This document shows positions 30,001 to 32,990 of a stretch of DNA of 64,000 bases, in pieces. The position numbers are program-made. How positions within the stretch are numbered: position 1 is the stretch's first letter; every line of letters starts with the position of its first letter. Source of the DNA: Escherichia coli (lineage in GTDB: Bacteria > Pseudomonadota > Gammaproteobacteria > Enterobacterales > Enterobacteriaceae). Location: the NCBI RefSeq assembly GCF_013122565.1, contig NZ_CP053258.1; one strand, 5' to 3'.

Positions 30001-32990
30001 GTCAATAATAACGAGGTGATTGAAGAGCAAGAACGGATGGCAAAACTTTCCGGAATGAAAGATACCTGGACGGTCACTGCCGTTAAGCCGAAGTATCAGA
30101 CCTATGTGGTGGTGATCGGTGAAAGCGCGCGTCGCGATGCCCTCGGTGCCTTTGGCGGTCACTGGGACAATACCCCGTTTGCCAGCAGCGTTAACGGTTT
30201 GATATTTGCTGACTACATTGCCGCCAGTGGCTCCACGCAGAAATCGCTTGGCTTAACGCTCAATCGCGTAGTCGATGGCAAACCACAGTTTCAGGATAAC
30301 TTTGTCACCCTGGCAAATCGCGCGGGCTTCCAGACCTGGTGGTTTTCCAACCAGGGTCAAATCGGCGAATACGATACCGCTATCGCCAGCATCGCCAAAC
30401 GAGCAGATGAAGTGTACTTCCTGAAAGAAGGTAATTTTGAAGCAGATAAAAACACGAAAGACGAAGCGTTACTGGATATGACCGCTCAAGTGCTGGCGCA
30501 AGAGCACTCGCAACCGCAGCTGATTGTTCTGCATCTGATGGGCTCGCATCCGCAGGCCTGCGACCGGACACAAGGAAAATACGAAACCTTTGTGCAATCG
30601 AAAGAAACGTCGTGCTATCTCTATACTATGACGCAAACGGACGATTTACTGCGCAAGCTGTACGATCAGTTACGCAACAGCGGCAGCAGCTTCTCGATGG
30701 TTTACTTTTCTGACCACGGTCTGGCCTTTAAAGAGCGCGGCAAAGACGTGCAATACCTTGCCCATGATGATAAATATCAGCAAAATTTCCAGGTGCCTTT
30801 TATGGTCATTTCCAGCGACGATAAAGCGCATCGTGTGATTAAAGCCCGCCGCTCAGCCAATGACTTCTTAGGCTTTTTCTCCCAGTGGACGGGAATTAAA
30901 GCGAAGGAAATTAACATCAAATACCCGTTTATATCTGAGAAGAAAGCCGGGCCGATATACATCACCAACTTCCAGTTACAGAAGGTGGATTACAACCATC
31001 TCGGAACCGATATTTTCGACCCGAAGCCTTAAAAACAAAAATCCGCCCCGAGAGGCGGATTTTTTATATCACCAAAGTGATTAGAAGCGGTAACCAACAC
31101 CGGCAATCCAGGTGCCTACGTCAACGCTACGAATACGGCTCTGCTCGTAAGAGAAGTCCAGAGCAACGTTTTCCATCGGGTTGAACTGCAGACCAGCACC
31201 GTAGGAGAAACCGTAGTCGCTGGTGTCGTGTTTGTAGGTCGGGTATTCAGTGGTCTGGAATTTACCATAACCCACACCCACTACACCGTAGATGCTTGCC
31301 CAGTCGTTAATGCGGTAAGCCGGACCAGCAGTGATGCCGTAGTACTGGTTTTTGTTGTAGTCACCAGAGCTTGCAGTACGGCTTTTCTCGGTGTAAGTGA
31401 AAGAACCGATCACACCCAGCGGGCTGTTGTCTTCTTCATAGCGGTATTTCAGGTTGAAACCGCCCATTTTGTTCATTTGGCCCTGAGCGTCGCTCTGTGC
31501 GTAACCGCCAGTTACGGTAGAAGTCGCAGCTACGGAAGTACCTGCGGTGAAAGCCAGAACTGCGGCCAGTGCTGAAAGACATGCAATTTTTTTCATAACC
31601 ACCTCAAATGTGATTCAAATAAGTCCTAAGTTTTAAATATATCAAAAATTAATGGGAAACTCTTCGCGATTTGTGATGTCTAACGGGCCATTTCATGTAA
31701 CAGAACGTTTCCATACACCGCTATCCATCTAAATTTAAATCACTTTTTCAGAGAACTGCGTAAGTATTACGCATGTTTTCCCTGTCATTCATCCAGATTA
31801 TTCCTAATCACAAGACTAATGATTCCATCAATCCTGGCGCATTTTAGTCAAAACGGGGGAAAATTTTTTCAACAAATGCTCAACCAGCATTGGGTATATC
31901 CAGTACACTCCACGCTTTACTTAAGTCTAGATATTTGTGGGAGAAAGGATGCCTGGTTCATTACGTAAAATGCCGGTCTGGTTACCAATAGTCATATTGC
32001 TCGTTGCCATGGCGTCTATTCAGGGTGGAGCCTCGTTAGCTAAGTCACTTTTTCCTCTGGTGGGCGCACCGGGTGTCACTGCGCTGCGCCTGGCATTAGG
32101 AACGCTGATCCTCATCGCGTTCTTTAAGCCATGGCGACTGCGCTTTGCCAAAGAGCAACGGTTACCGCTGTTGTTTTACGGCGTTTCGCTGGGTGGGATG
32201 AATTATCTTTTTTATCTCTCTATTCAGACGGTACCGCTGGGTATTGCGGTGGCGCTGGAGTTCACCGGACCACTGGCGGTGGCGCTGTTCTCTTCTCGTC
32301 GCCCGGTAGATTTCGTCTGGGTTGTGCTGGCGGTTCTTGGTCTGTGGTTCCTGCTACCTCTGGGGCAAGACGTTTCCCATGTCGATTTAACCGGCTGTGC
32401 GCTGGCTCTGGGGGCCGGGGCTTGTTGGGCTATTTACATTTTAAGTGGGCAACGCGCAGGAGCGGAACATGGCCCTGCGACGGTGGCAATTGGTTCGTTG
32501 ATTGCAGCGTTAATTTTCGTGCCAATTGGAGCGCTTCAGGCTGGTGAAGCACTCTGGCACTGGTCGGTTATTCCATTGGGTCTGGCGGTCGCTATTCTCT
32601 CGACCGCTCTGCCTTATTCGCTGGAAATGATTGCCCTCACCCGTTTGCCAACACGGACATTTGGTACGCTGATGAGCATGGAACCGGCGCTGGCTGCCGT
32701 TTCCGGGATGATTTTCCTCGGAGAAACACTGACACCCATACAGCTGCTGGCGCTCGGCGCAATTATCGCCGCTTCAATGGGTTCTACGCTGACAGTACGC
32801 AAAGAGAGCAAAATAAAAGAATTAGACATTAATTAAATTTACATTTCTGCATGGTTATGCATAACCATGCAGAATTTCTCGCTACTTTTCCTCTACACCG
32901 TCTTTATATATCGAATTATGCAAAAGCATATTTATTCCGAAAATTCCTGGCGAGCAAATAAATAAGAATTGTTCTTATCAATATATCTAA

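What the first reader, a model, noticed from the sequence alone, without database searches (positions are those of the whole stretch)
32845..32874. 30-bp perfect palindrome between rhtA and the dps promoter
TTCTGCATGGTTATGCATAACCATGCAGAA is an exact 30-bp palindrome sitting 9 bp after the rhtA stop. It is longer and more perfect than a typical intrinsic terminator and is not followed by a clean T-run. It could insulate dps from rhtA read-through, or be a protein binding site or a cruciform-prone element.
Basis: seen in the sequence. Interest (0 to 1): 0.3.

Follow-up and report, generated by a model that had tools for sequence, protein, structure and literature searches.

The report
Stem-loop ending the rhtA transcript
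The 30-bp palindrome is real and not chance, but it is most likely an ordinary RNA hairpin at the 3' end of the rhtA messenger RNA, kept by compensatory mutations across enteric bacteria, and not a special DNA or protein-binding element.

Summary
TTCTGCATGGTTATGCATAACCATGCAGAA lies at 32845-32874, 8 nt after the rhtA stop and about 236 bp upstream of the dps transcription start. It is the only long perfect palindrome in the window and cannot be explained by chance. The window is E. coli, K-12 has the identical sequence, and about 99% of complete E. coli genomes carry it at one locus.

In 77 Enterobacteriaceae rhtA-dps spacers, most genera have a hairpin 2-16 nt after the rhtA stop. Its sequence and loop length (3-11 nt) change while pairing is kept: 11 of 13 pairs show compensatory changes. 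Non-Watson-Crick positions are mostly G·U on the rhtA-sense strand (27 against 9 A·C), which points to an RNA. Only Escherichia has the perfect palindrome.

The hairpin has no U-tract and is followed by a C-rich, G-poor stretch. This matches the protective 3' stem-loops of Rho-terminated transcripts (Dar & Sorek 2018). Full-length RNA sequencing lists rhtA and dps as separate transcripts.

The 30-bp inverted repeat was already noted in print as the centre of an in-vitro Dps footprint. Published Dps ChIP-seq peaks do not cover it.

The 3' end and Rho dependence were not shown here. This is an ordinary feature of low interest.

The parts
31949..32836 (+). rhtA coding sequence (threonine/homoserine exporter). 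The stop TAA is at 32834-32836.
   Evidence: ORF list. RefSeq annotation of identical K-12 and DH5a sequence gives an 888-nt CDS. tblastn is 100%.
32837..32844 (+). 8-nt spacer (ATTTACAT) between the stop codon and the hairpin
   Evidence: In 67 unique orthologous hairpins this offset is 2-16 nt, median 8.
32845..32857 (+). 5' arm of the hairpin (TTCTGCATGGTTA)
   Evidence: Compensatory changes are shown.
32858..32861 (+). Loop TGCA. It is self-complementary, which is why the element reads as a perfect 30-bp palindrome in Escherichia only.
   Evidence: Loops in other genera are 3-11 nt and are not palindromic.
32862..32874 (+). 3' arm of the hairpin (TAACCATGCAGAA)
32875..32944 (+). Pyrimidine-rich, C-rich and G-poor tract after the hairpin (16 C, 6 G in 70 nt). 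It is a candidate Rho-loading (rut-like) region. This function is inferred, not shown.
   Evidence: Across 72 loci the mean is C 24.5% and G 11.3%, with C>G in 68 loci. The rest of the spacer has C 19.3% and G 16.0%.
33034..33096 (+). dps core promoter, for context and not part of the element. It holds the conserved CTATTAGTGTGATAGG (33034-33049), the -10 TATACT (33083-33088) and the start site at about 33096.
   Evidence: Invariant columns in the 16-species spacer alignment. TSS 848950 from SMRT-Cappable-seq.
33679..33709 (+). Canonical intrinsic terminator of dps (GCGGCTTCCTGACAGGAGGCCG followed by TTTTGTTTT). It served as an internal contrast and control.

Best explanation
The palindrome is the DNA image of an RNA stem-loop (13-bp stem, 4-nt loop) at the 3' end of the rhtA messenger RNA. 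Proposed mechanism: RNA polymerase transcribes past the rhtA stop and the hairpin folds just behind the terminating ribosome. The hairpin has no U-tract, so it probably does not release polymerase efficiently by itself. The C-rich, G-poor, untranslated RNA that follows would then load Rho, which would stop transcription in the roughly 200 bp before the dps core promoter. 3'-to-5' exonucleases would trim the RNA back to the base of the hairpin, which would block them and set a stable rhtA 3' end at about 32875-32881. The net effect would be a defined, protected rhtA mRNA end and separation of rhtA transcription from the dps promoter. Shown here: the hairpin, its conservation by compensatory change, the strand bias, the absence of a U-tract, the C>G tract, and separate rhtA and dps transcription units in published data. 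Inferred: Rho dependence, exonuclease trimming and the exact 3' end.
For: 1. A hairpin lies 2-16 nt after the rhtA stop in about 69 of 77 Enterobacteriaceae rhtA-dps spacers, although the arm sequences differ between genera.
2. On a 36-sequence alignment, 87.8% of cells are paired, against 30-43% when partners are slid. Eleven of 13 pairs have changes on both sides, and 0 of 500 shuffles reach the observed values. RNAalifold independently predicts the same helix, with 9 of 11 pairs compensatory.
3. Under strand-symmetric scoring, internal non-Watson-Crick positions are G·U on the rhtA-sense strand 27 times and A·C 9 times (binomial p = 0.004). My hand count gives about 18 against 5-7 independent events. 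The known dps terminator scores 49:1 by the same method, which validates the test.
4. Loop length ranges from 3 to 11 nt, which does not fit a fixed-spacing protein site.
5. There is no U-tract. The tails hold a mean of 3.0 T in 10 nt, against 4.6 for dps terminators (p = 1e-6), and the terminator scan does not call the site.
6. C exceeds G in the 70 nt downstream in 68 of 72 loci.
7. Points 5 and 6, plus a stable stem-loop, are the features Dar & Sorek 2018 report for 3' ends of Rho-dependent E. coli transcripts, with rut sites immediately downstream (PMC6061677).
8. SMRT-Cappable-seq lists b0813 (rhtA) as a monocistronic unit from TSS 850130 and b0812 (dps) as monocistronic from TSS 848950. 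No rhtA-dps read-through unit is listed (PMC6131387 supplement).
9. In the spacer alignment the hairpin is a conserved island, separated by about 170 poorly conserved bases from the dps core promoter.
Against: No mapped RNA 3' end at the hairpin was found. rhtA and coordinates 84916x-84917x are absent from the Term-seq supplements I could read (Adams 2021, TERMITe 2025). This may reflect low rhtA expression or truncated stored files. The Dar & Sorek tables are not held. Rho dependence is inferred from composition only. The G·U against A·C bias (3:1) is much weaker than for the dps terminator (49:1). Part of it could come from transcription-associated C-to-T mutation bias on the non-template strand. 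In E. coli the tail begins UUUCU, so some intrinsic termination is possible. Pseudocitrobacter and Trabulsiella have short spacers (115-130 bp) with no hairpin, so it is dispensable in some lineages.
Confidence: 0.65

Rival explanations
1. The hairpin is a weak but self-sufficient intrinsic (Rho-independent) terminator of rhtA in E. coli. The stable hairpin plus the proximal UUUCU tail would release polymerase without Rho.
For: The hairpin is stable at -18.7 kcal/mol. The E. coli tail has 3 U directly after the stem and 5 T in 10 nt. rhtA is a separate transcription unit. The position and strand are right for a terminator. K. oxytoca and K. pneumoniae carry GC-rich, terminator-like hairpins at the same place.
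Against: The consensus scan does not call it. The proximal U's are not conserved even within Escherichia: the E. albertii tail is AUUCCG and clade E1V33 and E. whittamii have UAUUAC. Most genera have UAUCC or UAUUC. Tail T content is significantly lower than for dps terminators. There is no A-tract upstream. The base of the stem is A-U rich.
Confidence: 0.2
2. It is a DNA-level structural element. The perfect palindrome would extrude a cruciform or otherwise act as a preferred contact for the Dps dodecamer, influencing the topology and autoregulation of the dps promoter, as suggested by Antipov et al. 2017.
For: Antipov et al. [quoted passage not shown] The palindrome has an AT-rich centre, and as single-stranded DNA it folds at -13 kcal/mol.
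Against: The perfect palindrome is confined to Escherichia. Elsewhere the loops are 3-11 nt and asymmetric, and stems contain G·U positions that would be A·C mismatches in the other strand's hairpin. The strand bias favours an RNA. The distal fragment carrying the repeat bound Dps less well than the proximal promoter fragment (PMC4433220). The Dps ChIP-seq peak lists show peaks at 848722-848980, 848882-848994 and 849459-849608, and none over 849172-849201. From general knowledge, not tested here: 30-bp palindromes rarely extrude in vivo at physiological supercoiling.
Confidence: 0.07
3. It is an operator for a dimeric transcription factor, with half-sites CTGCATGG and CCATGCAG, regulating dps or a distal promoter.
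For: The symmetry is perfect in E. coli. The core CTGCATG...CATGCAG is shared by 27 of 77 loci across Escherichia, Citrobacter, Enterobacter, Lelliottia and Pseudenterobacter.
Against: Half-site spacing varies from 3 to 11 nt, and the half-site sequence is replaced altogether in Buttiauxella, Cedecea, Kosakonia, Raoultella and Klebsiella while pairing is kept. The site is about 236 bp upstream of the dps start and directly behind a stop codon. Half-site matches elsewhere in the window are hardly above chance: 13 including the two self-hits, against 6.6 ± 2.5 expected. No paper in the searchable library prints the sequence.
Confidence: 0.03
4. It overlaps a weak distal dps promoter (the 'promoter-like site P3' of the Ozoline group). 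The TTTACA at 32838-32843 would be a -35 element and the palindrome would hold the spacer and -10.
For: Melekhov et al. 2015 say the distal 214-bp fragment contains a weakly active promoter-like site P3 that is needed for maximal dps expression. TTTACA lies just upstream of the palindrome, with CATAAC 16 nt further on (read).
Against: The promoter scan finds nothing there. The exact position of P3 could not be established from the papers I could read. SMRT-Cappable-seq lists only TSS 848950 for dps. TTTACA is not conserved outside Escherichia and some Citrobacter. A promoter would not explain the compensatory base-pair changes.
Confidence: 0.03

Closest known systems
[quoted passage not shown]
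   Same: It is an energetically stable stem-loop just downstream of the gene. It has no U-rich tail and no upstream A-tract. It is followed by C-over-G enrichment where rut sites were localised.
   Different: No mapped 3' end, bicyclomycin sensitivity or exonuclease dependence is available for rhtA. The stem (13 bp, perfect) is at the long end. The E. coli tail starts with UUU, so it may be a mixed case.
Canonical intrinsic (Rho-independent) terminators, such as the dps terminator at 33679-33709 and the opgE/ompX bidirectional terminator at 31037-31064 in the same window
   Same: It is a hairpin just after a stop codon on the sense strand, of comparable or greater stability. It shows a G·U over A·C bias typical of RNA stems.
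   Different: It has no U-tract and no A-tract. The stem is A/U-richer (GC 0.44 against 0.66) and longer. The consensus scan does not call it.
Inverted repeats proposed as preferred Dps contact sites (Melekhov 2015; Antipov 2017)
   Same: This very repeat is cited there as lying at the centre of an in-vitro DNase I-protected Dps contact region upstream of dps.
   Different: In-vivo ChIP-seq peaks in the same study do not cover it. The distal fragment binds Dps less well. The evolutionary pattern fits an RNA stem and not a DNA palindrome.
REP/BIME repetitive extragenic palindromes
   Same: It is an extragenic palindrome downstream of a gene that can form an mRNA 3' hairpin.
   Different: It is single-copy, with one locus per genome. 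It has no REP consensus and is orthologously conserved at one position.

Membership tests
Protective 3' stem-loop of a Rho-dependent transcript (Dar & Sorek 2018) | Energetically stable stem-loop at the transcript end, downstream of the gene | tested here: met
   The fold is -18.7 kcal/mol with z = -6.7. It is conserved by covariation.
Protective 3' stem-loop of a Rho-dependent transcript (Dar & Sorek 2018) | Reduced uridine content after the stem and no A-tract before it | tested here: met
   Tails hold a mean of 3.0 T in 10 nt, against 4.6 for dps terminators. The upstream flank is ATTTACAT.
Protective 3' stem-loop of a Rho-dependent transcript (Dar & Sorek 2018) | C-over-G enrichment (rut-like) immediately downstream | tested here: met
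   In the 70 nt downstream, C is 24.5% and G 11.3%, with C>G in 68 of 72 loci. E. coli has 16 C and 6 G.
Protective 3' stem-loop of a Rho-dependent transcript (Dar & Sorek 2018) | Precise steady-state RNA 3' end mapped just 3' of the stem | tested here: inconclusive
   No rhtA entry appears in the Term-seq supplements held. Other supplements are not held. SMRT-Cappable-seq shows only that rhtA is monocistronic.
Protective 3' stem-loop of a Rho-dependent transcript (Dar & Sorek 2018) | Read-through rises when Rho is inhibited, and the 3' end depends on PNPase or RNase II trimming | not testable with these tools
   This needs bicyclomycin or rho and pnp/rnb mutant RNA data.
Canonical intrinsic terminator | Hairpin followed directly by a U-tract (about 5 or more U in 8) | tested here: not met
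   The consensus scan does not list it. The tail is UUUCUCGCUA in E. coli and UAUCC or UAUUC in most genera.
Canonical intrinsic terminator | G+C-rich stem of about 5-14 bp with a 3-8 nt loop, on the sense strand after the stop codon | tested here: inconclusive
   Position, strand, loop and stability fit. Stem GC is only 0.44, with an A-U-rich base.
Canonical intrinsic terminator | Factor-independent termination in vitro | not testable with these tools
   This needs an in-vitro transcription assay.
Operator of a dimeric transcription factor | Fixed spacing and conserved sequence of the two half-sites among orthologous sites | tested here: not met
   Spacing ranges from 3 to 11 nt. Half-site sequences are replaced in several genera while pairing is retained.
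Cruciform-forming palindrome or Dps structural target | Perfect or near-perfect palindrome with a minimal spacer, maintained as such in relatives | tested here: not met
   It is perfect only in Escherichia (30-34 bp). Other genera have asymmetric loops and G·T positions.
Cruciform-forming palindrome or Dps structural target | In-vivo Dps occupancy at the site | tested here: not met
   Published ChIP-seq peak lists have no peak over K-12 849172-849201. The nearest are 848722-848980 and 849459-849608. The files were cut when stored, but the listing is contiguous through this region.
Cruciform-forming palindrome or Dps structural target | Cruciform extrusion under negative supercoiling | not testable with these tools
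   This needs structural probing of supercoiled DNA.
REP/BIME-type repeated extragenic palindrome | Many copies per genome sharing a consensus | tested here: not met
   There is one match in the window with up to 3 mismatches. There is one locus per E. coli genome; the two reported 'places' are the palindrome matching itself on both strands. There is no Rfam family.

The most novel reading that the evidence does not exclude
In Escherichia the hairpin may have a second, DNA-level or coupling role. One version: it is a U-tract-less terminator placed exactly at the leading edge of the ribosome stopped on the rhtA stop codon, so that rhtA translation tunes how much transcription runs into the dps upstream region. 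The other version: it is a cruciform-capable perfect palindrome that Dps contacts to reinforce its own promoter, as Antipov et al. proposed. Neither is excluded. The palindrome is perfect throughout Escherichia (30-34 bp), an in-vitro Dps footprint is reported there, and no functional test of the hairpin exists.
Probability: 0.08. Interest if true: 0.45.

Novelty: new member of a known kind. Interest (0 to 1): 0.15.

Why it matters
It matters little beyond annotation. It would add rhtA to the list of E. coli genes that end in a U-tract-less stem-loop, the type linked to Rho-dependent termination. It would also explain a conspicuous palindrome that has been read in the literature as a Dps-binding structure. 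For work on dps regulation, the practical point is that the distal 30-bp repeat belongs functionally to the upstream gene rhtA. Reporter constructs that include it may carry an rhtA terminator and not a dps control element. For threonine-production strains that overexpress rhtA, the hairpin probably contributes to mRNA stability.

Tried and rejected
- I searched for a mapped rhtA 3' end. Supplements of Adams 2021 and TERMITe 2025 have no rhtA, b0813 or 84916x/84917x entry. Supplements of Dar & Sorek 2018, Choe 2022 and Conway 2014 are not held. SMRT-Cappable-seq gives start sites and gene content but no 3' coordinates.
- Literature searches for rhtA + dps + terminator and for the literal sequence returned nothing. 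A broader search on rhtA, terminator and Rho gave nothing relevant. The Salmonella dps/fis rewiring paper does not mention the element.
- An Rfam scan of 31600-33700 gave only a chance-level RUF4 hit (22.9 bits against a gathering score of 55, E = 0.12). I rejected it.
- The consensus terminator and promoter scan found nothing at the site.
- I considered a repeated-element or mobile-element end and rejected it, because the element is single-copy and orthologously placed.
- I tested whether the stem sequence is unusually conserved for a terminator. It is not clearly so: the core occurs in 27 of 77 loci, and the dps downstream region has 8-mers shared by 33-45 of 77 loci.
- I estimated the d'Aubenton-Carafa terminator discriminant by hand from memory. 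It is about -2 for E. coli (borderline) and clearly negative for typical other genera. I did not use this as evidence because the formula was recalled, not computed with a tool.
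Full report
**Observation**

The sequence TTCTGCATGGTTATGCATAACCATGCAGAA is at window 32845-32874 and is a perfect 30-bp palindrome.
- The rhtA stop codon is at 32834-32836, so eight bases separate it from the palindrome.
- The tail is TTTCTCGCTACTTTTCC.
- The palindrome is the only perfect one with arms of 9 nt or more in the 64 kb. In 200 dinucleotide-preserving shuffles the longest arm reached 12, and the expected number of 15-nt-arm palindromes is 6e-5 per window.
- As RNA, either strand folds into a 13-bp stem with a 4-nt loop at -18.7 kcal/mol (z = -6.7 on the + strand). As DNA the fold is -13 kcal/mol.

**Where it is**

The window is Escherichia coli. The 501 bp around the site match 5,421 of 5,426 complete E. 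coli genomes, and K-12 MG1655 carries the identical palindrome.
- The local gene order is ompX (-), rhtA (+), the palindrome, dps (+), glnH (+).
- A 46-nt probe finds the element in 5,368 of 5,426 genomes at one locus each. The two 'places' per genome are the palindrome matching itself on both strands. The probe is identical in 4,088 genomes.
- RefSeq annotates nothing under it.
- The published dps start site is K-12 848950, which is window 33096. The palindrome therefore spans -251 to -222 relative to the dps start.

**Comparative evidence**

A scan of one genome per species with the Dps protein returned 80 loci, all from Enterobacteriaceae or small contaminant contigs. rhtA lies directly upstream of dps in 77 of them.
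- In most genera a strong hairpin sits 2-16 nt (median 8) after the rhtA stop.
- The hairpin sequence changes between genera:

| Genus | Hairpin sequence |
|---|---|
| E. coli | TTCTGCATGGTTA-TGCA-TAACCATGCAGAA |
| E. albertii | ATTTTGCATGG...CCATGCAAAAT (a double C>T / G>A change) |
| Citrobacter | TATTCTGCATGGTT-TGCAT-AATCATGCAGAATA |
| Enterobacter | ...CTGCATGGC-TTACCG-GCCATGCAG... |
| Kosakonia | TATTTGGCATGAGA-TCCT-TCTTATGCCAAATA |
| Buttiauxella | TATTTACCGTGGTTA-TTG-TGACCACGGTAAATA |
| Raoultella | GTTCTGCACGAGGC-AATC-GCCTCGTGCAGAAC |

- Klebsiella carries unrelated GC-rich stems.
- Loops range from 3 to 11 nt. Only Escherichia has a self-complementary loop, so the 'perfect palindrome' is a local accident of the loop TGCA.
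- On a 36-sequence MAFFT alignment, the 13-pair helix is paired in 87.8% of cells, against 30-43% when the 3' partners are slid. Eleven of the 13 pairs carry changes on both sides, and no shuffle out of 500 reaches the observed values.
- RNAalifold predicts the same helix without being told it, with 9 of 11 pairs compensatory.
- In a 16-species alignment of the whole spacer there are only two conserved islands, separated by about 170 poorly conserved bases. One is this hairpin. The other is the dps core promoter with its leader.

**RNA or DNA, and which strand**

I scored hairpins with a rule that treats G·T and A·C alike, then counted the internal non-Watson-Crick positions.
- On the rhtA-sense strand there are 27 G·U and 9 A·C in 65 unique hairpins (binomial p = 0.004).
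- My hand count of independent events is about 18 against 5-7.
- A·C on this strand would be G·U on the other strand. The bias therefore points to a structure read as RNA in the rhtA direction, and not to a cruciform, which needs both strands, or to an antisense RNA.
- The same method applied to the hairpin downstream of dps, a textbook terminator, gives 49 against 1. The test works, although the rhtA signal is weaker.
- A transcription-associated C-to-T bias could contribute to the asymmetry, so I treat this as supporting evidence and not as proof.
- The variable arm spacing independently argues against a dimeric DNA-binding protein.

**What kind of hairpin**

It is not a canonical intrinsic terminator.
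- The consensus scan does not call it.
- The ten bases after the stem hold on average 3.0 T, against 4.6 for the dps terminators of the same genomes (Mann-Whitney p = 1e-6).
- The stem is longer (mean 13 bp) and poorer in G+C (0.44 against 0.66) than the dps terminator stems, and there is no upstream A-tract.
- The 70 nt after the hairpin are C-rich and G-poor on the sense strand. The mean is C 24.5% and G 11.3%, with C>G in 68 of 72 loci and C at least twice G in 51. E. coli has 16 C and 6 G. The rest of the spacer has C 19.3% and G 16.0%.

Dar & Sorek (2018) describe exactly this combination for Rho-dependent E. coli transcripts: a stable stem-loop, low U, no A-tract, and C over G downstream. 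In that study the stem-loop protects the RNA from 3'-5' exonucleases and the rut site lies just downstream (PMC6061677).

SMRT-Cappable-seq lists rhtA (b0813) as a monocistronic unit from TSS 850130 and dps (b0812) as monocistronic from TSS 848950, with no read-through unit (PMC6131387 supplement). Transcription from rhtA therefore does end in this spacer. That dataset gives no exact 3' end.

**Best explanation**

The palindrome encodes the 3'-terminal stem-loop of the rhtA mRNA. The most likely sequence of events is this:
1. The hairpin forms just past the terminating ribosome.
2. Rho loads on the C-rich untranslated RNA that follows and terminates transcription before the dps core promoter.
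3. Exonucleases trim the RNA back to the hairpin, which sets and protects the 3' end.

A partial contribution of factor-independent termination in E. coli, whose tail starts UUUCU, is possible and is kept as the main rival. The hairpin, its covariation, its strand bias, its tail composition and the separate transcription units are shown. Rho dependence, trimming and the precise end are inferred. I give the RNA 3'-hairpin explanation 0.65 and the purely intrinsic variant 0.2.

**Prior literature and the DNA-level readings**

The repeat has been noticed before. Antipov et al. [quoted passage not shown] Three results weaken this reading:
- The same group found that the distal fragment holding the repeat binds Dps less well than the proximal promoter fragment (PMC4433220).
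- Their ChIP-seq peak lists show peaks at 848722-848980, 848882-848994 and 849459-849608, and none over 849172-849201.
- The evolutionary pattern does not fit a conserved DNA palindrome.

That paper also mentions a weak distal promoter-like site, P3, in the distal fragment. I could not place it, and the promoter scan finds nothing at the palindrome. No Rfam family matches. No searchable paper prints the sequence.

**Limits**

- No direct 3'-end map for rhtA was accessible.
- The comparative set is limited to the 80 best Dps matches, all Enterobacteriaceae.
- The covariation counts are not corrected for phylogeny.
- Pseudocitrobacter and Trabulsiella have a 115-130 bp spacer with no hairpin, so the element is dispensable in some lineages.

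**Verdict**

This is a real, non-random and evolutionarily maintained element of an ordinary kind: an mRNA 3' stem-loop of the U-tract-less type. The repeat is already mentioned in print. Novelty is a new member of a known kind. Interest is 0.15.

Noticed in passing
window 31037-31064: There is a textbook bidirectional terminator (AAAAATCCGCC-N6-GGCGGATTTTT) between the convergent genes at 29449-31032 (+) and ompX at 31081-31602 (-). The + gene is the phosphoethanolamine transferase called opgE in K-12. The terminator has an A-tract and a T-tract on either side, in contrast with the rhtA hairpin.
   Followed up: partly
window 33679-33709: The dps gene ends in a canonical intrinsic terminator (GCGGCTTCCTGACAGGAGGCCG followed by TTTTGTTTT). 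Across 73 unique orthologues its stems show G·U 49 against A·C 1. I used it as a positive control for the strand test.
   Followed up: yes
window 32911-32940: A second, smaller predicted hairpin lies in the rhtA-dps spacer (CGAATTATGCAAAAGCATATTTATTCCG). It is seen in E. coli but not conserved in other genera. A nearby CATATTTATTC-like motif recurs in Escherichia, Citrobacter and Salmonella.
   Followed up: no
L015, L017 (Pseudocitrobacter); L047, L061, L070 (Trabulsiella): In these genera the rhtA-dps spacer is only 115-130 bp and has no hairpin after rhtA. The rhtA stop lies about 75 nt upstream of the dps -10, so read-through from rhtA into dps seems likely there.
   Followed up: partly
L004 (E. 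coli SCPM-O-B-8794) and L003 (E. albertii): The perfect palindrome is longer in some Escherichia. It is 34 bp (ATTTCTGCATGG...CCATGCAGAAAT) in one E. coli. It is 32 bp in E. albertii, which also carries a matched C>T / G>A double substitution relative to E. coli.
   Followed up: partly
L007 (Marinobacter sp. BW6, 703-bp contig) and L077 (Streptomyces polyasparticus, 573-bp contig): Tiny low-coverage contigs in non-enterobacterial assemblies encode Dps proteins 97% and 92% identical to E. coli Dps. They are almost certainly enterobacterial contamination of those assemblies.
   Followed up: no
window 33034-33049 and 33081-33089: CTATTAGTGTGATAGG and GCTATACTT are nearly invariant across 16 genera in the dps promoter. 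From general knowledge, the first looks like part of the OxyR site and the second is the dps -10 region.
   Followed up: no
window 31937-31949: The mechanical ORF list starts rhtA at a GTG at 31937 (299 aa). RefSeq annotates an 888-nt CDS starting at 31949. This is a trivial ORF-caller difference.
   Followed up: no
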